Part shown: piece after piece, positions 20,773 to 33,900 of the stretch
How the letters are laid out: every line of letters starts with the position of its first letter
How positions within the stretch are numbered: position 1 is the first letter of the stretch
Virus record (IMG/VR): IMGVR_UViG_2609459792_000007
DNA: 64,000 nt
Strand: one strand, 5' to 3'
From: a virus
Lineage: Duplodnaviria > Heunggongvirae > Uroviricota > Caudoviricetes
Translations under genes and position numbers: made by a program
The notes under the pieces: model-generated
Database searches by the model: none
Seen by the model: the letters and a program-made list of their open reading frames with translations, nothing else
What the model was told of the DNA's origin: nothing

Positions 20773-22091
20773 AAAAGTTGATCGCACTTAAGCATAAGCT
20801 GGACGAAATGAAAGCTATGGGAACCAATGCAAAAAAAGAGGCATTGGCCAACATGGATGACTTTGAACAAAGCATGGTTTCATTGATGCTCAACCCTTTC
20901 ATCCGTTTTGGGGTAAAGAAATACAAAGTGGCAGAGCCGCTTAGTGAGTCCGTCCCAAGTGACGAAAAAGCCATTGATGTACTGAATAAGCTGGCCTCTC
21001 GCGAGCTGACGGGGAACGCAGCAATAGTTGCTGTTGAGTCTATCGTAGCGTCAATGTGCGCCGATGGGCAGGACGTGTTCCGTCGTTTCCTCTTAAAAGA
21101 CCCGAAAGCAGGTGTTGGGATTAGCCTATGCAACAAGGTTTTTGAGAATCCCATTCCGAAATTCGAGGTGCAGCTGGCGTCACCGTATAAAGAAAAAGGC
21201 GACAAATACCCCTTCAAGCCAAATCCTAAAGCAAAATGGCCGATGATTGGCAGTCTTAAGCTCGATGGTTTGCGAGTAATTTGCGAGGTTATTGTTGACG
21301 AGGAAGAGGTTAACTTCCTTTCTCGTACTGGTAATCCAATCACGTCTCTCGATCACCTAAAGCCAGCAATGCTCGAATTAGGCAAACTTTCAGGCCACAA
21401 ACACATCTTCTTCGATGGTGAAGGAACAGCCGGTTCATTTAACCAGTCCGTATCTGCATTGCGCAAAAAGAACGTGCAGGCAATTGGCGCTATTTATCAT
21501 GTTTTCGACTTCTTCCTACCGGAATGGCGGGCACAGGCTAAATCCAAAGAGTATGCAAAGACAGGTATGAAGCTGAAAGAGCGCCTGGCTATGCTGGTGG
21601 CGTTGTTCAAAAACGATCGCAGTGAAGGCTACGGACAAGACATTCACCTGCATCCGTTCTATATCATCCATAGCCACGAAGATTTCATCGAACGCTTTAT
21701 GAAACGCCTGGACGATAACGAAGAAGGGGAGATGGGCAAAGATCCGAACTCTGTTTACGAGTTTAAACGTACCCGCAGCTGGTGGAAGTTAAAAGACGAA
21801 GATTCAGAAGATGGTGAAATTATCGACTTTGAGCCGGGCGACCCGGACTCTGGTTTTGCCAACACACTTGGAAAAATTGTTATTCGTCTTGAAAACGGCG
21901 TCATCGTTCGTGCGAGCGGCATTAAGCATAAATATCTGGACGAGATCTGGAACAACAAAGAGAAGTACCGTGGTCGTATTGTTGAGGTTCATTGTCACGA
22001 GAAAACGCCGGATGGCAGCTTACGCCACCCACGACTGAAATGGCCGCGTTGCTTACGCGATACAGAAGATCGAATCGGAGATAAAGAATGA
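20769..22091 (+). CDS. ATP-dependent DNA ligase
   Basis: 440 aa; adenylation motif SLKLDGLRV (KxDG). Confidence 0.7.
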   Translation: MKKLIALKHKLDEMKAMGTNAKKEALANMDDFEQSMVSLMLNPFIRFGVKKYKVAEPLSESVPSDEKAIDVLNKLASRELTGNAAIVAVESIVASMCADGQDVFRRFLLKDPKAGVGISLCNKVFENPIPKFEVQLASPYKEKGDKYPFKPNPKAKWPMIGSLKLDGLRVICEVIVDEEEVNFLSRTGNPITSLDHLKPAMLELGKLSGHKHIFFDGEGTAGSFNQSVSALRKKNVQAIGAIYHVFDFFLPEWRAQAKSKEYAKTGMKLKERLAMLVALFKNDRSEGYGQDIHLHPFYIIHSHEDFIERFMKRLDDNEEGEMGKDPNSVYEFKRTRSWWKLKDEDSEDGEIIDFEPGDPDSGFANTLGKIVIRLENGVIVRASGIKHKYLDEIWNNKEKYRGRIVEVHCHEKTPDGSLRHPRLKWPRCLRDTEDRIGDKE

Positions 22092-22267
22092 TGCTCGGCT
22101 GGATGATTGCATTTTTAGCGGTTGGTTTTTTAATCGGTATTGTGGTGATGTCCAGTTGCATCAATGACTACATTAAAAGCGGTGTTATAGAACGACGCGG
22201 TCGTATTTATCGCATTGTAGAAATAACCCACACAGTGAAGGAGATTAAGGATGATCGTATTAAGTAA
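22088..22267 (+). CDS. small membrane protein (59 aa, below ORF-track cutoff)
   Basis: Read from sequence: MMLGWMIAFLAVGFLIGIVVMSS..GRIYRIVEITH; one TM helix then a basic tail; paralogous pattern to the two small genes that follow. Confidence 0.4.
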   Translation: MMLGWMIAFLAVGFLIGIVVMSSCINDYIKSGVIERRGRIYRIVEITHTVKEIKDDRIK

Positions 22268-22466
22268 GCGGGAGAAGGAAACGCTTCATGAAATCAGTAA
22301 GTGGCCGGAGTTCCCTGAGTACTGGAAGCCTAAAACGCGGGCTAAGTTAGAGCGGTTAGGGTTGGTTGCAAACGTTTCTGAAACGTGGTGTTCGGCCAAC
22401 TACCAGTTAACTGATAAAGGGAAAGTATTGCTACAGCAATTAGTAGAATCAGGAGCGTTAAAATGA
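22251..22466 (+). CDS. hypothetical protein
   Basis: 71-aa ORF; no motif recognised. Confidence 0.4.
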   Translation: MIVLSKREKETLHEISKWPEFPEYWKPKTRAKLERLGLVANVSETWCSANYQLTDKGKVLLQQLVESGALK

Positions 22467-22615
22467 TTCCATACATCTCATTAGCTTTTATGGGTGGCTT
22501 CCTTATTGGCTTCGGCATCTGTCGTGATTTAATTAAGCAGGAACTTAAAACCAAAACACTGTGCATCGGAAAGCGTGTGTATCGGGTAGTTCATGAAACA
22601 AAGGTTAGAAAATGA
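22463..22615 (+). CDS. small membrane protein (50 aa, below ORF-track cutoff)
   Basis: Read from sequence: MIPYISLAFMGGFLIGFGICRD..GKRVYRVVHETK; TM helix plus basic tail. Confidence 0.4.
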   Translation: MIPYISLAFMGGFLIGFGICRDLIKQELKTKTLCIGKRVYRVVHETKVRK

Positions 22616-22902: not shown

Positions 22903-23681
22903 AAATACAATGATAAGTATTTACTTACTTATCTTATATGTATAAGATGACTTTGTTTTCGTTGAGACGCGACTGTTTGAACTTAAATACAAGTGCAAAC
23001 GAAGAAGTCTATCTGGCAGTAGCCTAATAAGCCAAACACCAGCGAGGTCAGTTTCCAGCCTCGTTACCGAAATGGGACACACTGAGCGAGTGTGATTGCA
23101 GAACGCAGGAGGGAACATTCATGTTCCCTCCGATGAAGTAACAGAATGGGCGGTTGGTATATTTTCAACTCCATATGACTCCCGGATTCTTAGCCACTGA
23201 CCGCCCATTCTGTTACGTCATTTTGTTCAATTATGTCGTTTATACTGGGTTAAAAAGCGGCGACGTAGCCCGGCTGGTATGGTCAGCCAGCACACAACGT
23301 TGAGGCCATTACATTTTTATCAATTCTAAGGTTCTATTCACAGAGATACCGGCGAGCGTTGATATGTAACATGTTGGGCAAACATTCAATCGGAGTAGTG
23401 GCCTCAACGTTGTGAAAATAGGATAGTTGTGTAGGTTTAACCACTGTTGCCATTGGTACCTGTTTTCACAACAAATGATTCCATACATCACATTGTATAA
23501 ATTACAAAGTAGGTGCTGTCCTCAGAAACATCATCTACTTAAATAATTTGCCTTCTACTATTGAGCGAAGTCGAAAGCGTCTGGCACTAACGAAAAGTGC
23601 AAGTAGCGGTGCGTTTCCTGGCAGAAACTAACACCGCCGCGATTGGCACTGTTGAGTAATAAATACTGGCAGTGCTGAATT

Positions 23682-23756
23682 GATGGTGTAGCTCAGCGGT
23701 AGAGCAGTTGGCTGTTAACCAACTGGTCGGTGGTTCGAATCCACCCACCATCGCCA
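23682..23756 (+). tRNA. tRNA-Asn (GTT)
   Basis: Cloverleaf read by hand: acceptor GATGGTG/CACCATC, D-arm GCTC-AGCGGTA-GAGC, anticodon loop CTGTTAA, T-arm GGTGG-TTCGAAT-CCACC, CCA encoded. Confidence 0.85.
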
Positions 23757-23761
23757 ATTTA

Positions 23762-23848
23762 GGGGAGTTAGTCCGTAGAGGTAGCGGGGTAGACTGTAAA
23801 TCTACTGTCATGGAGACTCGGGTGGTTCGACTCCATCACTCCCCACCA
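23762..23848 (+). tRNA. tRNA-Tyr (GTA), long variable arm
   Basis: Acceptor GGGGAGT/ACTCCCC, anticodon stem-loop GTAGA-CTGTAAA-TCTAC, long variable arm, TTCGA T-loop, CCA encoded; D-arm pairing atypical. Confidence 0.7.
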
Positions 23849-23852
23849 AATT

Positions 23853-23928
23853 GCCGGTTTAGCTCAGTTGGTAGAGCGCCTGCCTTGTAAGCAGGATGTC
23901 AGCGGTTCGAGTCCGTTAACCGGCACCA
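23853..23928 (+). tRNA. tRNA-Thr (TGT)
   Basis: Acceptor GCCGGTT/AACCGGC, D-arm GCTC-AGTTGGTA-GAGC, anticodon loop CTTGTAA, T-loop TTCGAGT, CCA encoded. Confidence 0.85.
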
Positions 23929-24142
23929 ATACAACGATAAGATCATTACGGTTAATCGTCGTTCATGTGCACAATGACTGGTCGAAAGGTAGTGATCTTA
24001 CCGTTGTGGTGGATTCGCAGACTGATGCGATAGCTTTCTTGGATGTTAGGGAAATGCGGCCGCAAATCTTCCCTTTCGCGAGCGGTGATCGTCCGTAGTC
24101 CTAATTGGCTGCACCGTATGCCGGAGATTCAGTACCGGCCAC

Positions 24143-24229
24143 CACAACGGCCGGAGAGTAGGGAGCATGGTGCTCAAGCGGTCTTGAAAACCGTCCCATT
24201 GCGCAAGCGATGATGGTTCGATTCCATTA
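24143..24229 (+). tRNA. tRNA-Ser (TGA), class II
   Basis: Acceptor GGAGAGT/ACTCTCC, anticodon stem-loop GCGGT-CTTGAAA-ACCGT, long variable arm, T-loop TTCGATT, CCA encoded; D-arm atypical. Confidence 0.65.
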
Positions 24230-24396
24230 CTCTCCGCCAGACACAGCGTTGAGCGGTTTGGCCTTTTAATCAACTCGATTAAGACTCCGCTAACATAAAC
24301 CAGACCGCTCAACGCTGTGATAGACAATTACGGCAGACGTTCTTAACCATAGCTTGCTAACATCCTAGCAACACTTTTTTTCAGCGCAAAATTCAA

Positions 24397-24418
24397 AGGG
24401 GCTTCGGCCCCTTTTTTG
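24397..24418 (+). terminator. rho-independent terminator after the tRNA cluster
   Basis: AGGGGC-TTCG-GCCCCT followed by TTTTTT. Confidence 0.8.
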
Positions 24419-24460
24419 CAACTGAAAGAGTCAAGTCTACGAACTTTGTAGGGAGAAATA

Positions 24461-24811
24461 ATGACCAGCAAAGAGAACACACCACTAAAAGTCACCCCTG
24501 AACACATTGAACAACTCATTCAAAGTGAACATTATTTCACTGCATATGATGCCAGCCACGGGGATAACTTCATCTCTGTTTACAATTCAAAAACAGATAT
24601 CGACAAAGGTCATGAGTCGTTAAAACTCTTAACGTTCTGCGTTATGGTTCTCAAAAATGGATATACCGTAACGGGAAAATCTGCGTGCGTAAGACCAGAA
24701 ATCTTCAACTTTGATGTTGGTCGTGAGTACGCTCGAAAAGATGCTATCGATCAAATCTGGCCCCTGGAAGGCTATCTCCTGAAGCAAAAGTGGCATGAGG
24801 CAAAGCAATGA
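24461..24811 (+). CDS. hypothetical protein
   Basis: 116-aa ORF; no motif recognised with confidence. Confidence 0.5.
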   Translation: MTSKENTPLKVTPEHIEQLIQSEHYFTAYDASHGDNFISVYNSKTDIDKGHESLKLLTFCVMVLKNGYTVTGKSACVRPEIFNFDVGREYARKDAIDQIWPLEGYLLKQKWHEAKQ

Positions 24812-25053
24812 CGATCACTATCTACGGACGAGATAACTGCTCATACTGCAAACGTGCGGTCGAGCTGGCGAAGCAACTAAAGGGACATGGCTACGGTGAT
24901 TATGAGTACATAGACATCACCACTGCCGGTATCGACAAGAAAAAACTAAGTGAAATTGTTGGTAAACCGGTAGAGACTATCCCCCAAGTACTGATCGATG
25001 GTCAACCGATTGGCGGATACACAGAACTGGCTGCATACGTCAGCACCCTCTGA
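24808..25053 (+). CDS. glutaredoxin (Grx1/NrdC-like)
   Basis: 81 aa; CSYC active site; GKPVETIPQVLIDGQPIGGYTELAAYV closely parallels E. coli Grx1 (GKPVETVPQIFIDQQHIGGYTDFAAWV) as recalled. Confidence 0.85.
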   Translation: MTITIYGRDNCSYCKRAVELAKQLKGHGYGDYEYIDITTAGIDKKKLSEIVGKPVETIPQVLIDGQPIGGYTELAAYVSTL

Positions 25054-25057
25054 TTTT

Positions 25058-25083
25058 AACGGCTCACAGGAGCCGTTTTTATT
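25058..25083 (+). terminator. rho-independent terminator
   Basis: AACGGCTC-ACAG-GAGCCGTT followed by TTTATT. Confidence 0.7.
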
Positions 25084-25133
25084 ACCACCAAACTCACTCC
25101 CATTTCCCTTAAAATTCAAAAAACAACGTCAAA

Positions 25134-25164
25134 ATGATTCCATACCTACTATGTATGGAATCAT
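25134..25164. promoter_or_regulatory. perfect 12-bp inverted repeat upstream of the recombinase gene
   Basis: ATGATTCCATAC-CTACTAT-GTATGGAATCAT; half-site ATGATTCCATAC also at 22463 and 23478; 17-mer ATGTATGGAATCATTAG recurs at 31181-31197. Confidence 0.5.
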
Positions 25165-25263
25165 TAGTGAAAATGAGTTACTTTTACTCTTGATCCTATA
25201 AGAATCTATGCCTAATATACTGTTTACTTATACAGTGAATCGGCGTAACTCGGTGATTGTCAT

Positions 25264-26367
25264 ATGAAAAATAGCTTTGACAGAGCACGCGCTGCGGAGA
25301 ACACCTCAAAAGAGGCGATTGAGTATCTCGAAAGAGCATCTCAAATGCAGGCCGTTATGATCTCGCAGGTTAGCATTGATATGAGATTCTCGGACGCATT
25401 CATGTTATTCACTCGCTTATCTCTGCTGATAACCAGACGTCGGCCAGAGATCGCTGTTCATTGTATTTTGATACATGTTTTGCCGCACATTGCCGATGTA
25501 AAAGTAAGTGACATTAATAGGTTCATGGTGAACCAGCTGGTCAACCCACTAATACTGGATGGCAAAATTGTTATGGGCCGCCGCGTTTTCTCTCTGATGA
25601 AACAGTTCCTTAGCTGGTGCGCCTTCCAGGGGATGATAGACGTGTCACCGTTAAACGATATGTCACTAAACAAAGTTGCCGGTGGCGCAAAGCCCACACC
25701 TCGCGAGCGGAAGCTGACCGACGCAGAGGTATGGGTGTTCTGGAATATATGGGACTACTTCAATGTGTGCGCTGGTACAAAATGGGCGGCCAGGCTGTGT
25801 CTTGTATCAGCAAGACGACCTGACGAAGTACTGCGGGCTAAAAAAAGTGAGTTCAATCTTAAGCGTGGGGTTTGGAATCAAGGCAAGAGAAACAAGTCAG
25901 CACGTGAGCATTCGCTGCCTTTAAGCACATTAATGCGCACATGCATTGAAGAGTTGTTCGAATACGGTAAAGACAGCCAGTGGCTCGTGCCTTCGAATAA
26001 AAAAATCGGGAAAGACCTTCCTATGTCTAAAGTGGCAATAGCCCAGGCATTACGTCGTATTCTGGAACGACCAGAACTGATGGAGCTTGAGCCATTTACA
26101 CCCCGAGATTTGCGCCGTACTGCGCGTAGTTACTTCCCAGCATTAGGCATAAGCCAGGAGGTATCACGCAAAATCATGAACCACAGTCTTGAGGGGATAG
26201 ATCGGGTCTACGACCGGCACGATTATATGGACGAGATGCGAGACGCCTTAGAAAGTTTCTCGACGTACATCGCATCAATCGTAGAGCAACCGGATTTAGA
26301 CGAAATTGACCACAAATTCAAGGGAGATCGTCTATCAACAGAGCTTATTCGTGTAAATTTTTCATAG
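25264..26367 (+). CDS. tyrosine recombinase / integrase (P4-family catalytic domain, atypical N-terminus)
   Basis: 367 aa; C-terminal catalytic residues in RDLRRTARSYF and NHSLEGIDRVYDRHDY; N-terminal about 60 aa do not resemble the usual arm-binding domain. Confidence 0.75.
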   Translation: MKNSFDRARAAENTSKEAIEYLERASQMQAVMISQVSIDMRFSDAFMLFTRLSLLITRRRPEIAVHCILIHVLPHIADVKVSDINRFMVNQLVNPLILDGKIVMGRRVFSLMKQFLSWCAFQGMIDVSPLNDMSLNKVAGGAKPTPRERKLTDAEVWVFWNIWDYFNVCAGTKWAARLCLVSARRPDEVLRAKKSEFNLKRGVWNQGKRNKSAREHSLPLSTLMRTCIEELFEYGKDSQWLVPSNKKIGKDLPMSKVAIAQALRRILERPELMELEPFTPRDLRRTARSYFPALGISQEVSRKIMNHSLEGIDRVYDRHDYMDEMRDALESFSTYIASIVEQPDLDEIDHKFKGDRLSTELIRVNFS

Positions 26368-26748
26368 AGACTTTATGGCCTCAACAACCTTTTGTGATGC
26401 GCCTTTCTCTTTACCGAATCGCTCGTTATACGCAGCAAGAACCTGTTTTTCGTCCTCGTTAAGAGGAGCGGTGCCTTCTTTGTATAAAAATGCTGCGAGT
26501 TCAGGTTGGCGTTCTTCCAGCACCATCATCATAAGACGACTTGGTTCAATACCCAGCGCCAGCGCCAGCGGACGAACCTTATCGATAGGCAAAGGAATTT
26601 TGCCACTTTTAATTAAAGAAAGGTTGTTGGCATTTTTATAACCAATAAGTCTGGCTATTTGGGCCTGACTCATAGGTGAGGATTCAATCAGCCCTGCGAT
26701 AAAAGCAGCATAGCGACTTTCTATAAATTCAATCTTGTTGTCAGACAT
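26362..26748 (-). CDS. HTH (XRE/CI-like) transcriptional repressor
   Basis: 128 aa; helix-turn-helix QAQIARLIGYKNANNLSLIKSG; no S24 peptidase domain; divergent from the downstream + genes across an AT-rich intergenic region. Confidence 0.65.
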   Translation of the reverse strand: MSDNKIEFIESRYAAFIAGLIESSPMSQAQIARLIGYKNANNLSLIKSGKIPLPIDKVRPLALALGIEPSRLMMMVLEERQPELAAFLYKEGTAPLNEDEKQVLAAYNERFGKEKGASQKVVEAIKSL

Positions 26749-26999
26749 TGTTACAACCTTTGCGCGTTTAATTCTCTCTGGTAAGTGCTTACCGATATTA
26801 CATCAAAGGTTAGGGTTGTAAAGCTATTATCATTTTTTTCGGCAGGCACTTGTAAGACCGAGCAAAGGTCCATGCATGGAGAAAAACTAGCCCAAAATAG
26901 GTAAGAAAATTAACTTGCATCTGATATAGATGTATTCAGTATTGATACAAATTTTAGTAGTATTCCTTACCATAGTATAAGTTAGAATGGATTGATTGA

Positions 27000-27212
27000 A
27001 TGAAAACCACTATTTCCAGCCTAATCGCTCTTGAGATCGGACACGTACAGAAATTAGCTGATGAGTGTGTAGCTGACATCCTCACCGATCTACCGAATGA
27101 GCAGATTCAGGTTGGTGTGAATGACACAACTGGCTTTATATTCGAACTTAACAACAAACGCTTCACGCTTCTCAATACCGGCTCCGGGTCTTTAGCCGTC
27201 AGAATCTGTTAA
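27000..27212 (+). CDS. hypothetical protein
   Basis: 70-aa ORF divergent from the repressor gene; no motif recognised. Confidence 0.4.
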   Translation: MKTTISSLIALEIGHVQKLADECVADILTDLPNEQIQVGVNDTTGFIFELNNKRFTLLNTGSGSLAVRIC

Positions 27213-27310
27213 CCCCTCTTCTCCCTGCGCGAATGGCTTAGTTCCCTGTTCGCGCAGTGCTACATTAAACACACTAGTAAATAATTTGTTTTCATAACAA
27301 AGGATTAGCC

Positions 27311-30929: not shown

Positions 30930-33900
30930 ATGAAGGCACTGATGGTTCGAACTGACTTCTCACTTGGGGAGTCGGCTCTAAAAGCAGAAAACGCGGTGAA
31001 GATTGCCAGAGAAGCTGGCTACACCGCTGTAATTTCAGCAGATAGCATGAATATTGCGAGCGTTATTCCACTACAACGTGCCGCTGGTGACGACATGGCG
31101 GTTATTTGTGGTGTGAAACTAAACATTGTTGATGATCCCACATACGAGCACCGGGCTAAACTTGCTAAAGAATCTATGAGATGTATGGAATCATTAGAGC
31201 GGGGACGTAACTACTCGTTTACCGCTCTAATTAAAAATGAGCAAGGATATCGCGACATCTGCGAACTAATGACGGCGGCCAACACACGAGAACAGTTCTA
31301 CTTTGTACCGCGTCTCTCGCTCGAACAGTTGGTTTCTACATATGCCAAAGGCAACATCATCCTGCTTACTTCCGACATCGGTAGCGTGTTCCAACGCAAC
31401 GATTTTGCAAAAATCATAAGCACACTGATTACAGCGGGTGGAAAAGACAACTTCTATAGTGTGGTTTATCCGCACCCTACCCCATTCTACGACCAGATTA
31501 ACGTCCGGGCGATGAAAGTCGCCAGCGCATTGAAAATAGAGCCAGTGGCGTTCTATCCCGCTTATTACGAATCGATCGACGATGCAGACATTAAAGACAT
31601 TGCGCACATGGTTACGAACAACATAAAAATCGACCAGCCGCATCGTCTGCGTATCCCCCACCAGCGAGATAACGCCGTCAATGGTCGCCGCCATCTCCTT
31701 GAGGCGCTTAAAGCCTTCTCCGTTCGCATGGATGTGCCGGTAACAGCTGCAATGGCCTCAACAACGCAGGACTCCATTATCGAAGCCTGTACATGGCGCT
31801 GGCATGAATTGCCACCAGCACTGCCCAAGATGGCAGACGACGAGCCTGCAACGCTGATGAAACTGGCTGTTGCAGGGCTGCGCAAACGTCTTACCACAAA
31901 AGAGTTTGGCTACACACCACCGGCTTCTGAGAACAGGGTTTATGTTGAGCGACTTAAGTACGAAATGGACACGCTTACTCGCCTGGGATTTTGTGGTTAC
32001 TTCCTGATGGTACGCGATCTGATGAATCACAGCCGTGAAACTGGCATTCCTGTCGGGCCTGGTCGTGGTTCCTCTGCCGGTTCTCTGGTGGCGTGGTGCA
32101 TAGGCATAACCAACGTCGACCCAATCCGTCACGGTCTTCTGTTTGAGCGTTTCATCAACCCTGAGCGTCTCGACTTGCCGGATGCGGACTTGGACTTCAG
32201 CCAGGCACGTCGCCATGAGGTGATCGAGTATCTGAATGAACGCTACGGCGAAGATTACGTTGCAGGCATTCCGAACTTCACCTACCTGGGCGCAGCCTCT
32301 GCACTACGTGATACCGCTCGTATTTATGGTGTGGAGTCCGCAGATATGGCGGTATCAAAAGAACTGAAGAACGCTGAGGATGATAGCCTTCCATTGGAAG
32401 AACTGCGCGAACAACTGGCAAGTCTCGACAAATACGCAACAAAATATCCTGATGCATTCAATGCAGCCTGCAAGTTACAAAGCCTTATGCGTGGCTTTGG
32501 TAGACATGCGGCAGGGATGATCGTAGCAGGTGTTCCTCTGACAGAACGTACACCGGTTGAGCGCCGTGGTGACGCGCGTTGTATCGCATTTGACAAGCGT
32601 TACTGCGAGGCTATGGGCCTAATTAAGCTGGACGTGCTTGGCCTGGCAACTCTCGATTTGCTCGATAGTGCAAAACGCTACATAAAAGAGAACACAGGTG
32701 AAGATATCAATCTTGATGCCATTTCTCTTGAAGATCGCAAGGTGCTGGATGGTTTTGCTGCTGGGTACACTCAAGGTGTTTTCCAGCTTGAATCAGGCCC
32801 AATGCGCAAGCTGCTTAAAGATTTAGGTGGTGGAATTGAGCCAATGAGCTTTAAAACGGTCGTCGCTACAACTGCGCTCTTCCGGCCGGGGCCAATTCAA
32901 TCAGGCATGTTGGATGACTATGTTTCTGTCGCCAAAGGCTTTATGACGCCGGAATCATTACACCCCGTTCTTGATGAACTTACCGCGGAAACAAATGGCG
33001 TGATTCTCTATCAGGAACAGACGATGAACGCGACTCGATTGCTTGCCGGCTTCACAATGGCTGAAGCTGACGCTGTGCGTTCCGCAATCGGTAAGAAGAA
33101 CATGGAAAAAATGAAGAGCATGGGCGAGAAGTTCATCGTTCAGGCTCAAGCTGGCTGGATAGACGTTGAGCTGGAAGATGGCACTACACAGCGCATTCAC
33201 CGTGCGGAACATTTTAAATGCGAAGACGGAACTCTGAAAACTGTCGAAGAGGCACTTGAGCACGGCGCAAAACTACCTATAAACGCAGTACGCGTTACAG
33301 CGTCACATCCAGGGCTATCAGAGATGAAAGCGAAGGAGATCTGGACCGCATTCGAAAAGAATGGTGCCTACCAGTTCAACAAATCACACTCTGTTGCTTA
33401 CTCCTTAATCAGCTATCAATCTATGTGGTTGAAAACTCATTATCCCGCAGAGTTTTTCGCTGCTGCTCTCACTATTCTTGGCGAAGATAAACACCAGGGG
33501 CTGGTTAAAGATGCGCTGACCTATGGTATTCGCGTATTGCCACCAGACGTTAACGTGTCATCTAACCGAATTGAGATCCGCACGCTTGAAGATGGCAGCC
33601 AGGTGCTGTATGCGCCCTTCTCTGCTGTGAAGGGGTGTTCTGAGAATGGCTGCCAGGCCATCATGAGAGCGCGAGAAAAGGTTGGTGGCAAATTCGAGTC
33701 ACTTGCGCAATTCGAAGAAGCTGTCGAGAAACGTGCCTGTAATAGTCGAGTGCGCGAATCGCTGCAAAAAGTAGGGGCGTTTGCATCCATCGAGCCAGGT
33801 AGTCTGCCAGCAACTGATCCAGAGCGCCTCCGCGACCAGGCAGAATTGATGGGAAACCTTGTCATAGACGCAGTTAAAGCCTCACGTCCGTTTGAGATGA

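What the first reader, a model, noticed from the sequence alone, without database searches (positions are those of the whole stretch)
23682..26748. tRNA cluster, recombinase with atypical N-terminus, and divergent repressor
Four tRNA genes are followed within about 1 kb by a tyrosine recombinase whose catalytic domain is P4-integrase-like but whose N-terminal region does not resemble an arm-binding domain, and by an oppositely oriented 128-aa HTH repressor. In a plasmid-borne element the recombinase may act as a multimer-resolution enzyme (Cre-like role) rather than an integrase, or the module may be a relic of an integrative ancestor. I found no direct repeat of a tRNA 3' end downstream that would mark an att site.
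Basis: partly seen in the sequence, partly recalled or inferred. Interest (0 to 1): 0.6.

Follow-up and report, generated by a model that had tools for sequence, protein, structure and literature searches.

The report
Plasmid-resolving recombinase with its site
This phage-plasmid "integrase" has lost the domain needed for chromosomal integration and sits beside a conserved 33-bp palindrome that is almost certainly its target, so it most likely keeps the plasmid monomeric, as Cre/loxP does, under DNA-damage (SOS) control.

Summary
One correction: the HTH gene is convergent with the recombinase, and the two 3' ends overlap by 6 bp.

The window is an SSU5/pHCM2-like phage-plasmid of E. coli, 97-98% identical to phage Cyrano.

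- **Domains:** the recombinase has core-binding and catalytic domains of P4/IntSXT descent. Only about 40 helical residues stand where the arm-binding domain should be.
- **Candidate site (new):** a 13-7-13 palindrome, AATGATTCCATAC-CTACTAT-GTATGGAATCATT (25133-25165), lies about 100 bp upstream.
- **Conservation:** an equivalent site precedes the gene in 63 of 63 family loci from different species, including unrelated Pantoea and Rahnella megaplasmids. Its arms covary with the recombinase clade.
- **Distribution:** 252 of 5,426 complete E. coli genomes carry one copy each. All copies are on plasmids and none is chromosomal.
- **Regulation:** a conserved LexA box (25218-25237) overlaps the promoter. 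Published Cyrano RNA-seq shows about 25-fold induction in macrophages.

The best reading is a Cre/loxP-like multimer-resolution module under SOS control. Three conserved solitary half-sites, all pointing toward the palindrome, remain unexplained. No step has been tested biochemically.

The parts
23682..23756 (+). tRNA-Asn (GTT)
   Evidence: ARAGORN and Rfam tRNA at 75.5 bits. Its 3' end (23756-23758) is a recurrent homology breakpoint with relatives.
23762..23848 (+). tRNA-Tyr (GTA)
   Evidence: ARAGORN and Rfam. It is absent from the 97% identical phage Cyrano.
23853..23928 (+). tRNA-Thr (TGT)
   Evidence: ARAGORN and Rfam. It is about 94% identical to the tRNA region of P1-like phages P7 and D6.
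24153..24239 (+). tRNA-Ser (TGA)
   Evidence: ARAGORN. The Rfam hit to the long-arm tRNA model falls just below its gathering score.
24461..25053 (+). Cargo genes: a Gp49-family protein (24461-24811) and a GrxA-type glutaredoxin (24808-25053), followed by an intrinsic terminator at 25058-25077
   Evidence: Pfam PF13876 (E 3e-29) and PF00462 (E 1.5e-10). Terminator scan. This is part of the variable cargo that lies left of the palindrome in relatives.
25111..25123 (.). A/T-rich motif (AAAATTCAAAAAA; family consensus AGATTTnAAAAAA) at a fixed distance left of the palindrome. It may be an accessory or DNA-bending element.
   Evidence: Position-wise conservation across 82 non-redundant flanks of both clades, although the upstream genes are unrelated. 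Its function is not tested.
25133..25165 (.). Predicted core recombination site: 13-bp inverted arms AATGATTCCATAC / GTATGGAATCATT around the 7-bp asymmetric spacer CTACTAT
   Evidence: Found as inverted repeat I10. It is present upstream of the gene in 63 of 63 family loci and about 100 IMG/VR contigs. The arms covary with the recombinase clade. The site persists in backbones that lack the HTH, cobT and dnaE genes. There is one copy per plasmid and none on chromosomes. Its left edge is a recurrent identity breakpoint.
25190..25237 (+). Putative recombinase promoter (-35 TTGATC 25190-25195; 17-bp spacer; -10 TAATAT 25213-25218), overlapped by the LexA box TACTGTTTACTTATACAGTG (25218-25237)
   Evidence: Read from the sequence. 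This is the only CTGT-N8-ACAG match in 64 kb, and it matches the 20-nt consensus at 16 of 20 positions. In relatives the CTG/CAG ends are kept while the centre varies; 108 of 167 loci carry a box. The hexamers score 8 of 12, below the threshold of the promoter scan. The Cyrano integrase transcript rises about 4.7 log2 in macrophages, in parallel with a UmuD-like gene that has a strong LexA box (18 of 20).
25264..26367 (+). Tyrosine recombinase, 367 aa: about 40 helical N-terminal residues, a core-binding domain and a catalytic domain. There is no arm-binding domain. Catalytic residues are R185, K211, R281 (in place of the usual His), R284, H307 and Y316.
26362..26748 (-). HTH protein, 128 aa, the putative lysogeny repressor. 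It is convergent with the recombinase, with a 6-bp overlap of the 3' ends.
   Evidence: Weak Pfam HTH_19, HTH_37 and HTH_3 hits and PHROG 8 'transcriptional regulator' (E 7e-12). The Cyrano orthologue CYRAN_45 is expressed 10-fold above the prophage background in lysogens (PMC9928086).
26780..26822 (-). HTH promoter (-35 TTTACA 26822-26817; -10 TAATAT 26800-26795) with the palindrome GGTAAGTGCTTACC (26780-26793) just downstream of the -10. The palindrome is probably the HTH protein's own operator and is unrelated to the 13-mer.
   Evidence: Promoter scan. The palindrome is conserved in Cyrano, PhiR41_1, Klebsiella and Citrobacter relatives, with one arm changed (CTTACT) in Kluyvera, Yersinia and Buttiauxella. 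These HTH proteins are only 57-65% identical to the window's.
22462..22477 (+). Solitary half-site L1 (AATGATTCCATACATC), which overlaps the start codon of the 50-aa ORF 22463-22615
   Evidence: Exact 13-mer. It is syntenic in Klebsiella, Kluyvera and Citrobacter elements.
23474..23489 (+). Solitary half-site L2 (AATGATTCCATACATC), in the non-coding region upstream of the tRNA cluster
31180..31195 (-). Solitary half-site R2, inside dnaE at codons C-M-E-S-L
   Evidence: The DNA is conserved while the flanking codons vary, which points to a constraint at the DNA level. The junction is intact in 372 of 372 plasmid records.

Best explanation
The recombinase and the 33-bp palindrome about 100 bp upstream of it form a self-contained, single-site recombination module of the Cre/loxP kind. 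Two recombinase monomers bind the 13-bp arms. Two sites, one on each half of a plasmid dimer, synapse into a tetramer, and strands are exchanged across the 7-bp spacer, which returns the phage-plasmid to monomers for stable inheritance. The same reaction could circularise or resolve other head-to-tail forms of the genome.

The enzyme descends from P4/IntSXT-type integrases but has lost the arm-binding domain. It therefore does not need arm sites, Xis or a chromosomal attB, and the element does not integrate.

In this Enterobacteriaceae lineage the gene is read from a promoter overlapped by a LexA box. Expression is therefore basal in lysogens and rises under SOS, when RecA-dependent dimer formation and prophage induction both increase. 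Because the site abuts the promoter region, the protein probably also autoregulates.

What is shown: the domain architecture, an intact catalytic set, the association of site and gene, the covariation of the arms, the plasmid-only distribution, and conservation of the LexA box. What is inferred: binding, strand exchange, resolution, LexA control and autoregulation.
For: 1. Architecture. Pfam finds only PF00589 plus a weak PF22022, and nothing for aa 1-70. The family profile aligns to lambda Int 71-342 from profile position 40. The AlphaFold model (pLDDT 85) has three short helices, then core-binding and catalytic domains. The best Foldseek matches are lambda Int structures (full-length and the 75-356 core-binding plus catalytic fragment), followed by XerA, XerH, Tn1549 Int and IntI. 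R185, K211, R284, H307 and Y316 are conserved.

2. Site. The palindrome has the canonical geometry of a tyrosine-recombinase core site.

3. Association. A 13-7-13 site lies 57-320 bp upstream of the gene in 63 of 63 family loci from different species.

4. Covariation. The arms are AATGATTCCATAC in the clade that is at least 56% identical, TGTGACTCCAGAC in the 45-53% clade, and a hybrid form in Chimaeribacter second copies.

5. Independence from the HTH gene. About 50 loci lack HTH, cobT, cobS, dnaE and ligase homologues within 10 kb but keep the site. The HTH gene has its own different palindrome.

6. No integration. 252 of 5,426 complete E. coli genomes carry the gene, at 255 places, all on plasmids. 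Each carrier has exactly one palindrome, and no chromosome has one.

7. Spacer orientation. The spacer consensus TTRRTAG occurs in either orientation relative to the gene in different lineages. That is expected if only the relative orientation of two copies matters.

8. Natural exchange. Sequence identity changes sharply at the left edge of the palindrome (L046: 79% left, 96.6% right; L074: 83-92% left, 77% right; PhiR41_1: unrelated cargo left, 96% right).

9. SOS control. The LexA box is conserved with a variable centre. In LF82 RNA-seq the Cyrano integrase rises from log2 5.6 to 10.3 in macrophages, tracking the LexA-boxed UmuD-like gene, while the terminase and connector genes stay near 3-5.6 and the major capsid gene reaches about 7.5.

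10. Method. Predicting a target as a palindrome next to a simple recombinase gene was validated experimentally in about half of tested cases for Cre-type enzymes (PMC10250229).
Against: - No biochemical or genetic test exists for this family. I found none in the searchable literature.
- The His of the HxxR motif is Arg (R281) in this family. I have not shown that this is compatible with full activity.
- LexA repression is unusual for a maintenance function and hints at a role tied to induction rather than to routine segregation.
- Three conserved, polar solitary half-sites are not needed by a simple resolution model.
- A conserved A/T-rich flank motif suggests that the functional site is larger than a minimal lox-like core.
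- The macrophage induction could have causes other than LexA.
- The host XerCD system could in principle already resolve dimers if a cer-like site exists elsewhere on the plasmid. I did not search for one.
Confidence: 0.62

Rival explanations
1. Phage-cycle recombinase. Its main job is not steady-state dimer resolution but a step in infection or induction. It could circularise terminally redundant virion DNA after injection (Cre's other role). Alternatively, when SOS-induced, it could fuse monomer circles into multimers that serve as packaging substrates.
For: The promoter carries a LexA box. The transcript rises about 25-fold under macrophage stress in Cyrano. Cyrano virions are induced 39-fold by ciprofloxacin (PMC9928086). 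The gene sits in the immunity and early region, next to the putative repressor.
Against: The same recombinase-plus-site module is kept on non-phage megaplasmids of Pantoea, Rahnella and Erwinia that have no virion genes nearby and no LexA box. The ancestral and general function therefore cannot be phage-specific. The packaging mode and genome ends of this phage are unknown here. Phage SSU5 itself has no homologue.
Confidence: 0.15
2. A true integrase that inserts the element into a chromosomal site, a tRNA gene or other attB, in some hosts or conditions. The adjacent tRNA cluster would then be a trace of that history.
For: The catalytic and core-binding domains are related to P4/IntSXT integrases. 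Databases annotate the gene as 'site-specific integrase'. The arm shares an 8-nt stretch (GATTCCAT) with the T-arm region of the element's own tRNA-Ser, as read directly from the sequence (repeat family D1). This could be chance.
Against: There is no arm-binding domain. Published classification holds that domain essential for the mobility function of such integrases (PMC8138268). No chromosomal copy of the gene or of the palindrome exists in 5,426 complete E. coli genomes. No tRNA-derived repeats occur in the window. No Xis-like gene is adjacent. Wherever the replicon type is stated in the record title, the locus is on a plasmid.
Confidence: 0.04
3. A platform for exchanging cargo. The palindrome would act as an integron-like or RMCE-like docking site through which the variable tRNA and moron region to its left is swapped between co-resident phage-plasmids. 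SOS would switch the exchange on, as it does for integron integrases.
For: The variable cargo abuts the left arm exactly in many lineages, and sequence identity jumps there. Like IntI, the recombinase lacks an arm-binding domain and has a LexA box. Solitary half-sites lie on the cargo side.
Against: Each plasmid has exactly one full site. The left ends of the variable segments fall at the 3' end of tRNA-Asn, at 23947 and at 24416-24421, not at the solitary site L2. The 7 nt after each solitary site share only ATC, and they do not match the palindrome spacer, so complete strand exchange is unlikely. No array of repeated cassette sites is present. Breakpoints at the site can equally arise from site-specific cointegration between two plasmids followed by homologous resolution elsewhere.
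Confidence: 0.08
4. A regulatory DNA-binding role. The palindrome and the solitary 16-mers would be operators. The recombinase-like protein, or another factor, would bind them to control transcription or replication in the immunity and early region, and recombination would be secondary or lost.
For: The solitary sites are under DNA-level constraint and show strict polarity toward the palindrome. One overlaps a start codon and one lies just upstream of the tRNA cluster. His-to-Arg at the HxxR position. Tyrosine-recombinase folds are known to have been recruited as phage repressors, for example YopR and SroF, which appear among the weaker Foldseek hits.
Against: The Tyr nucleophile, both Arg residues, the Lys and the second His are conserved across the family. 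The 13-7-13 geometry with an asymmetric, conserved spacer is that of a strand-exchange site, not of an HTH-type operator. Most family members have the palindrome only and no solitary sites.
Confidence: 0.08

Closest known systems
Cre/loxP of phage-plasmid P1 (and Dre/rox of D6)
   Same: Both are two-domain 'simple' tyrosine recombinases encoded on a phage-plasmid. Both have a single palindromic site with 13-bp arms and an asymmetric spacer (loxP is 13-8-13; PMC10250229). From my own knowledge, loxP also lies a few hundred bp upstream of cre. No arm sites, Xis or chromosomal target are involved. The expected role is dimer resolution, as stated for Cre in PMC7969092.
   Different: It belongs to a different sequence lineage: Foldseek E is about 0.02-0.2 to Cre structures against 5e-7 to lambda Int, and phmmer finds no PDB match. 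The spacer is 7 bp, not 8. This lineage has a LexA box in the promoter, extra polar half-sites kilobases away and a conserved A/T-rich flank motif.
P4 / IntSXT-subgroup integrases (CP4-57, SXT, P4)
   Same: The core-binding domain (PF22022) and catalytic domain are homologous. The nearest outgroup proteins, 24-34% identical, all carry PF13356. NCBIfam PRK09692 aligns over aa 71-336. From my own knowledge, a 7-bp exchange region is typical of lambda/P4-type sites.
   Different: It lacks the N-terminal DUF4102/PF13356 arm-binding domain that defines the subgroup (PMC8138268). It scores 33.7 bits against the 434-bit cutoff. There are no integrated copies, no attB and no tRNA-derived repeats.
Integron integrase IntI / attI
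   Same: Both are simple tyrosine recombinases. In both, the primary site lies directly beside the gene and borders a variable cargo region. From my own knowledge, intI promoters are LexA-controlled.
   Different: The site here is an ordinary double-stranded palindrome rather than a folded attC partner. There is one site per replicon and no cassette array. I did not test for the IntI-specific insertion, and the sequence relationship is remote (Foldseek E about 3e-4).
Rci / sfx shufflon recombinase of IncI plasmids
   Same: Both are plasmid-borne recombinases that sit phylogenetically among arm-binding integrases but do a non-integrative job (PMC8138268). From my own knowledge, sfx sites have a single conserved arm and a 7-bp spacer, which resembles the solitary half-sites here.
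   Different: No inversions or deletions end at the solitary sites: the dnaE junction is intact in 372 of 372 records and the polarity is invariant. The solitary sites are not inside alternative gene segments.
XerCD at dif/cer, and the plasmid resolvases ResD/rfsF (F) and Rsd/crs (Salmonella virulence plasmid)
   Same: The inferred function is the same: converting replicon multimers to monomers by tyrosine recombination at one site per replicon.
   Different: Xer is a host-encoded heterodimer that uses accessory proteins at plasmid sites, whereas this enzyme is element-encoded and presumably acts as a homotetramer. I did not compare sequences with ResD or Rsd. Those two names rest on my own knowledge.

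Membership tests
P4 / IntSXT-type integrase | N-terminal DUF4102 (PF13356) arm-binding domain | tested here: not met
   Pfam gives no hit for aa 1-70. The precomputed Pfam sets of the 113 closest homologues lack PF13356, whereas the outgroup proteins P0114-P0120 carry it. The alignment shows the window protein missing the roughly 90-residue block. The model has three short helices there.
P4 / IntSXT-type integrase | Homologous core-binding (Phage_int_M) and catalytic domains | tested here: met
   PF00589 E 5e-10. PF22022 scores 22.7 bits, below its gathering score of 27, in the window protein but is called in many homologues. PRK09692 aligns to aa 71-336 but at only 33.7 bits against a 434-bit cutoff.
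P4 / IntSXT-type integrase | Element found integrated next to a tRNA or other chromosomal gene, flanked by attL and attR repeats | tested here: not met
   There are 0 chromosomal places in 5,426 complete E. coli genomes and no tRNA-derived repeats in the window.
Active tyrosine recombinase (any) | Catalytic R-K-H-R-H/W pentad plus the Tyr nucleophile | tested here: inconclusive
   R185, K211, R284, H307 and Y316 are conserved. The first His (of HxxR) is Arg281 in at least 90% of family members, while the outgroups have His. Activity was not measured.
Simple single-site resolution system (Cre/loxP kind) | Two-domain recombinase without an arm-binding domain | tested here: met
Simple single-site resolution system (Cre/loxP kind) | One palindromic core site (arms of about 13 bp, asymmetric 6-8-bp spacer) per replicon, linked to the gene | tested here: met
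   The site is at 25133-25165. It is found in 63 of 63 family loci, and each carrier E. coli genome has exactly one.
Simple single-site resolution system (Cre/loxP kind) | The recombinase binds and recombines that site, and its loss causes multimers or instability | not testable with these tools
   The only support is indirect: covariation of arms with recombinase clade and identity breakpoints at the site.
Cre-type recombinase (sequence family) | Recognisable sequence or close structural similarity to Cre | tested here: not met
   phmmer against PDB gives no hit. Foldseek E to Cre chains is 0.02-0.2, well behind lambda Int, Xer, Tn1549 Int and IntI.
LexA (SOS) regulon member | CTGT-N8-ACAG box overlapping the promoter and conserved in orthologues | tested here: met
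   The box is at 25218-25237 and matches the consensus at 16 of 20 positions. It is the only such box in the window. It is conserved with a variable centre in E. coli, Klebsiella, Kluyvera, Yersinia and Citrobacter elements.
LexA (SOS) regulon member | LexA binding, and derepression on DNA damage | tested here: inconclusive
   Published RNA-seq shows the Cyrano integrase up about 4.7 log2 in macrophages, in parallel with a LexA-boxed UmuD-like gene. No lexA(Ind-) or direct-binding data are available.
Shufflon / invertase system (Rci kind) | Inversions or deletions between repeated sites seen among natural copies | tested here: not met
   The orientation pattern of the solitary sites is invariant in about 80 loci. 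The dnaE junction is intact in 372 of 372 plasmids.

The most novel reading that the evidence does not exclude
In SSU5-like phage-plasmids of Enterobacteriaceae the recombinase may be more than a resolvase. Induced by SOS, it would also occupy three or four conserved single half-sites placed kilobases away on both sides of its core site, all pointing toward it. One is at a start codon, one is upstream of the tRNA cluster, and one is inside dnaE. Together they would form a higher-order, polar nucleoprotein arrangement that couples DNA damage to the lysis-lysogeny switch, to replication or to control of recombination. Such an arrangement has not been described for tyrosine recombinases. Read-through from the SOS promoter would at the same time be antisense to the convergent repressor gene.
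Probability: 0.12. Interest if true: 0.75.

Novelty: new variant of a known kind. Interest (0 to 1): 0.45.

Why it matters
SSU5/pHCM2/pMT1-like phage-plasmids are common. About 5% of complete E. coli genomes carry this module, and relatives occur in Klebsiella, Salmonella Typhi and Yersinia pestis. Some of these elements carry resistance genes. Their 'integrase' is a persistent core gene whose role has been left open.

Assigning it a specific 33-bp target and a non-integrative, SOS-linked role does three things.
- It corrects a misleading annotation.
- It explains why these elements are never found integrated.
- It marks a recombination point where cargo-bearing segments of different phage-plasmids appear to be exchanged.

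It also gives an example of an arm-binding integrase lineage that reverted to a simple recombinase and then spread to unrelated megaplasmids.

In practical terms, two natural arm specificities (AATGATTCCATAC and TGTGACTCCAGAC) with a 7-bp spacer would be candidate orthogonal lox-like tools, if the enzymes are active.

Tried and rejected
1. **Better upstream start or hidden arm-binding domain.** Rejected. The ORF is already maximal and the upstream region is non-coding.

2. **tRNA-derived att repeats.** None found.

3. **Integrated copies or a chromosomal attB in E. coli.** None found.

4. **The palindrome as the operator of the HTH repressor.** Rejected. The site persists in about 50 loci without the HTH gene, and the HTH gene has its own conserved palindrome, GGTAAGTGCTTACC.

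5. **The palindrome as an intrinsic terminator of the upstream genes.** Rejected. No T-run follows it, and grx has its own terminator at 25058-25077.

6. **Cargo cassettes bounded by solitary site L2 and the palindrome.** Rejected. The left breakpoints fall at the tRNA-Asn 3' end, 23947 and 24416-24421.

7. **Solitary sites as endpoints of inversion or deletion.** Rejected for stable events. The polarity is invariant and the dnaE junction is intact in 372 of 372 plasmids.

8. **A fork trap around a terminus-located resolution site.** Unsupported. GC skew is uniformly positive because the genes are co-oriented, so it is uninformative. repA lies only about 18 kb from the palindrome, not opposite it.

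9. **Co-varying half-sites in dnaE of the TGACTCCAGAC-type SSU5-like elements.** None found.

10. **Literature describing the site sequences.** Only unrelated primer matches turned up.

11. **Defence-system models for the recombinase and neighbouring genes.** Nothing meaningful.

12. **PDB sequence search with the HTH protein.** No hits.

Full report
**What the window is.** The region 23000-27300 is 97-98% identical to Escherichia phage Cyrano and phage CMS-2020a, and to more than 160 E. coli plasmids of about 95-125 kb that are typed IncFIB and non-mobilizable. Relatives occur in Klebsiella, Salmonella, Enterobacter and Yersinia. The annotated gene order in these records is helicase, primase, ATP-dependent ligase, small ORFs, tRNAs, gp49, glutaredoxin, 'integrase', HTH, a small ORF, CobT-like, CobS-like, DnaE. 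This is an SSU5/pHCM2-like phage-plasmid. Cyrano is a siphovirus that is kept as a plasmid at about 5.5 copies per cell and is induced 39-fold by ciprofloxacin (PMC9928086).

**Check of the observation.** ARAGORN finds exactly the four tRNAs reported: Asn 23682-23756, Tyr 23762-23848, Thr 23853-23928 and Ser 24153-24239. Rfam agrees. The recombinase ORF is 25264-26367 (+, 367 aa) and the HTH ORF is 26362-26748 (-, 128 aa). The two genes are convergent and their 3' ends overlap by 6 bp. The HTH gene is divergent only from the downstream operon that starts at 27000. No repeat of 12 nt or more derived from any tRNA occurs elsewhere in the window, apart from one chance 12-mer.

**The recombinase lacks an arm-binding domain.**
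- Pfam finds Phage_integrase (aa 172-320, E 5e-10) and a sub-threshold Phage_int_M (aa 71-133). Nothing matches aa 1-70.
- NCBIfam PRK09692 aligns aa 71-336 to model positions 137-393, at 33.7 bits against a cutoff of 434.
- Homologues 42-99% identical are all about 340-395 aa. Their precomputed Pfam sets list PF22022 and PF00589 but never PF13356. The next relatives, 24-34% identical and 360-464 aa, all carry PF13356, the DUF4102 arm-binding domain of P4/IntSXT integrases.
- In the alignment the window protein lacks the roughly 90-residue N-terminal block of those outgroups.
- A profile of the family aligns to lambda Int residues 71-342 starting at profile position 40.
- The AlphaFold2 model (mean pLDDT 85) shows three short helices in aa 1-40, followed by the core-binding and catalytic domains. 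The best Foldseek PDB matches are lambda Int structures, both full-length and the 75-356 fragment (E about 5e-7), then XerA, Tn1549 Int, XerH and IntI. Cre is far weaker, at E 0.02 or worse.
- R185, K211, R284, H307 and Y316 are conserved. The His of HxxR is Arg281 in this family.
- The ORF already starts at the first start codon after a stop, so no longer N-terminus exists.

Published classification treats DUF4102 as the hallmark of the IntSXT subgroup and the arm-binding domain as essential for the mobility function (PMC8138268).

**A candidate cognate site.** The repeat search found a near-perfect palindrome at 25133-25165: AATGATTCCATAC-CTACTAT-GTATGGAATCATT. It has 13-bp arms and a 7-bp asymmetric spacer, and it ends 98 bp before the recombinase ATG. 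This is the geometry of a tyrosine-recombinase core site.
- Scanning IMG/VR for the arms with any spacer returned 101 contigs. The spacer differs by lineage: CTACTAT, TTGGTAG, CTATTAA, TTGTAAG, TATGTAA and others.
- A scan of one genome per species returned 64 loci that encode relatives. Of these, 63 belong to the family, and every one carries a 13-7-13 site 57-320 bp upstream of the gene. Only a 28%-identical outgroup on a Burkholderiaceae chromosome lacks it.
- The arms covary with the protein clade. They are AATGATTCCATAC where the protein is at least 56% identical. They are TGTGACTCCAGAC in the 45-53% clade (Pantoea, Rahnella, Erwinia, Xenorhabdus, Photorhabdus, Ewingella, Hafnia, Morganella). 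Second copies in Chimaeribacter carry a hybrid asymmetric form.
- About 50 of these loci are not SSU5-like at all. They have no HTH, CobT, CobS, DnaE or ligase homologue within 10 kb. In a 508-kb Pantoea replicon, for example, the gene sits between TonB-dependent receptor genes and pagP. The palindrome therefore travels with the recombinase and not with the HTH gene.
- The HTH gene has its own promoter (-35 TTTACA, -10 TAATAT) and its own palindrome, GGTAAGTGCTTACC (26780-26793). That palindrome is kept in the E. coli, Klebsiella and Citrobacter relatives. In Kluyvera, Yersinia and Buttiauxella one arm is changed to CTTACT.
- The spacer consensus TTRRTAG appears in either orientation relative to the gene in different lineages. 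It even differs between two otherwise identical contexts, PhiR41_1 and L047. So the site's orientation relative to its flanks is not constrained.

**No integration.** The module occurs in 252 of 5,426 complete E. coli genomes, at 255 places, all on plasmids and none on chromosomes. A 41-nt query centred on the palindrome finds exactly one site in each of the same 252 genomes and none on any chromosome. Where replicon type is stated in the species-representative loci, it is a plasmid or megaplasmid. Among 50,697 phage records only nine SSU5-like phage-plasmids have a full-length homologue. All other phage integrases match only from about residue 70 onward, at 34% identity or less.

**Evidence that the site is used in nature.** The left edge of the palindrome (25131-25133) is a recurrent breakpoint.
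- In PhiR41_1 the whole ligase-to-glutaredoxin segment is replaced by about 6.4 kb of unrelated cargo, and homology resumes at 25133.
- In L046 identity is 79% on the left and 96.6% on the right. In L074 it is 83-92% on the left and 77% on the right.
- Many E. coli plasmids match only from query position 13-14, which is the palindrome edge.

This fits site-specific cointegration between different phage-plasmids followed by resolution elsewhere. Selection on the site next to a freely variable region could contribute to the same pattern.

**SOS control.** Between the palindrome and the ATG lie TTGATC (25190-25195), a 17-bp spacer and TAATAT (25213-25218). This putative promoter is overlapped by TACTGTTTACTTATACAGTG (25218-25237), which matches the LexA consensus at 16 of 20 positions and is the only CTGT-N8-ACAG in the window. 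The hexamers are weak, at 8 of 12, below the threshold of the scan tool. Orthologous boxes keep the CTG/CAG ends while the centre varies, for example Klebsiella TACTGTATATAAACACAGTA and Yersinia TACTGTTCATGCATACAGTT. In all, 108 of 167 loci have a box. The roughly 60%-identity clade and the megaplasmid clade lack it.

The only other strong box in the Cyrano genome precedes a UmuD-like S24 peptidase gene. In the published LF82 RNA-seq the Cyrano integrase reads log2 5.6 in LB overnight culture, 7.9 and 6.1 in the two medium-only samples (B1, B6), and 8.9 and 10.3 in the two macrophage samples (MB1, MB6). The UmuD-like gene follows the same course (7.2, 9.7, 9.1, 11.3, 12.2). The terminase and connector genes stay near 3-5.6, and the major capsid gene reaches about 7.5. 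This is consistent with LexA control but does not prove it.

Because the recombinase and HTH genes converge without an intervening terminator, induced recombinase transcripts must run antisense into the 3' part of the HTH gene. The nearest weak candidate terminator is at 26588-26604. That is a possible link to prophage induction. It is an inference only.

**Unexplained: polar solitary half-sites.** The exact 13-mer occurs five times in the window: the two palindrome arms plus 22462 (+), 23474 (+) and 31183 (-). It occurs nowhere in the other 44 kb of the Cyrano genome.
- The solitary copies extend to AATGATTCCATACATC.
- They are syntenic in Klebsiella, Kluyvera and Citrobacter elements whose recombinase genes are only 71-75% identical at the DNA level.
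- The copy in dnaE encodes C-M-E-S-L, which is kept while the residues on both sides vary. This points to a constraint on the DNA.
- In about 80 loci every copy left of the palindrome is on the + strand and every copy right of it is on the - strand.
- They are absent from the TGACTCCAGAC clade.
- They are not cassette boundaries and not rearrangement endpoints.
- The 7 nt that follow each copy share only ATC and do not match the palindrome spacer.
- A fork-trap analogy gets no support: repA is only about 18 kb away and GC skew is uninformative.

**Conserved flanks.** A conserved A/T-rich motif (consensus AGATTTnAAAAAA; 25111-25123 in the window) lies at a fixed distance left of the palindrome. 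A TAnnnT-like element lies 16-21 nt to its right. Both are seen in both clades. The functional site may therefore be larger than the core, and the protein may autoregulate.

**Verdict.** This is a simple, single-site tyrosine recombination module of P4/IntSXT ancestry that most likely resolves plasmid multimers as Cre/loxP does. In this lineage it is wired to the SOS response. The kind is known. The lineage, the 7-bp-spacer site, the LexA control and the polar half-sites are variations that I did not find described. No step has been tested biochemically.

Noticed in passing
window 23133-23221, 23293-23414, 23926-24012, 24242-24319: Four long hairpins punctuate the tRNA region. Their stems are 20-24 bp and near-perfect, and their loops are 38-82 nt. 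Fold z-scores are -7.0, -6.0, -3.8 and -9.9. Two of them directly follow tRNA-Thr and tRNA-Ser. The arms of the second and fourth share CACARCGTTGAG. There is no Rfam match. They could be MITE-like inverted repeats, processing signals or terminators.
   Followed up: partly
window 23678-24262: The tRNA cluster is a shared mobile module. It is 92-94% identical to the tRNA regions of P1-like phages P7, D6 and Ro157c2YLVW, and about 79% identical to those of N4-like phages. tRNA content differs between near-identical relatives: Cyrano has Asn, Thr and Ser only, while the window adds Tyr and a 225-bp spacer. The 3' end of tRNA-Asn is a recurrent homology breakpoint.
   Followed up: partly
L176 10276-10295 (Cyrano record about 89275), upstream of CYRAN_98: The only other strong LexA box in the Cyrano genome (TACTGTATGTGTATACAGTA, 18 of 20) lies 36 nt upstream of a 130-aa S24-peptidase, UmuD-like gene. 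That gene is induced about 5 log2 in macrophages.
   Followed up: partly
window 27000-27212 (70-aa ORF, PHROG 2627): The small ORF transcribed divergently from the HTH gene has no known function. Its Cyrano orthologue CYRAN_46 shows the largest rise of the genes inspected (CYRAN_40-49) in macrophages, from log2 4.3 to 10.8. It may be the first early gene (Cro-like or antirepressor-like) of the switch.
   Followed up: no
L004 8001-8033 (PhiR41_1) compared with L047 and window 25146-25152: The 7-bp spacer of the palindrome is flipped (ATAGTAG instead of CTACTAT) in phage PhiR41_1. A contig with identical flanks has the usual orientation. Across lineages both orientations of TTAATAG/CTATTAA occur. 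The spacer has therefore inverted repeatedly, either by hairpin-loop inversion or through recombinase action.
   Followed up: partly
window 25870-25882 (-); L110, L111, L106 at +606 from the recombinase ATG: Inside the recombinase gene, at the conserved V-W-N-Q-G codons, the Kluyvera, Yersinia and Citrobacter lineages carry a further minus-strand copy, CTTGATTCCATACATC. In the window the same position is degenerate (CTTGATTCCAAAC). This may be a coincidence helped by the coding constraint.
   Followed up: partly
window 22088-22267 and 22463-22615: Two small predicted membrane proteins of 59 and 50 aa look like paralogues. Each has a hydrophobic N-terminus and an R-x-Y-R-(I/V)-V motif. The second starts exactly at solitary half-site L1.
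   Followed up: no
L177 4099-6438 (NZ_CP117972.1), roughly window 35-37 kb: A 779-aa protein annotated as a LAGLIDADG homing endonuclease sits among the replication genes of a close relative. It could be an intein-containing gene. I did not examine it.
   Followed up: no
phage SSU5 (JQ965645 / NC_018843): The name-giving phage SSU5 matches only window 23010-23424 of the 23000-27300 query at the DNA level. It has no full-length homologue of the recombinase in a protein-level search. The type phage therefore appears to lack this module.
   Followed up: partly
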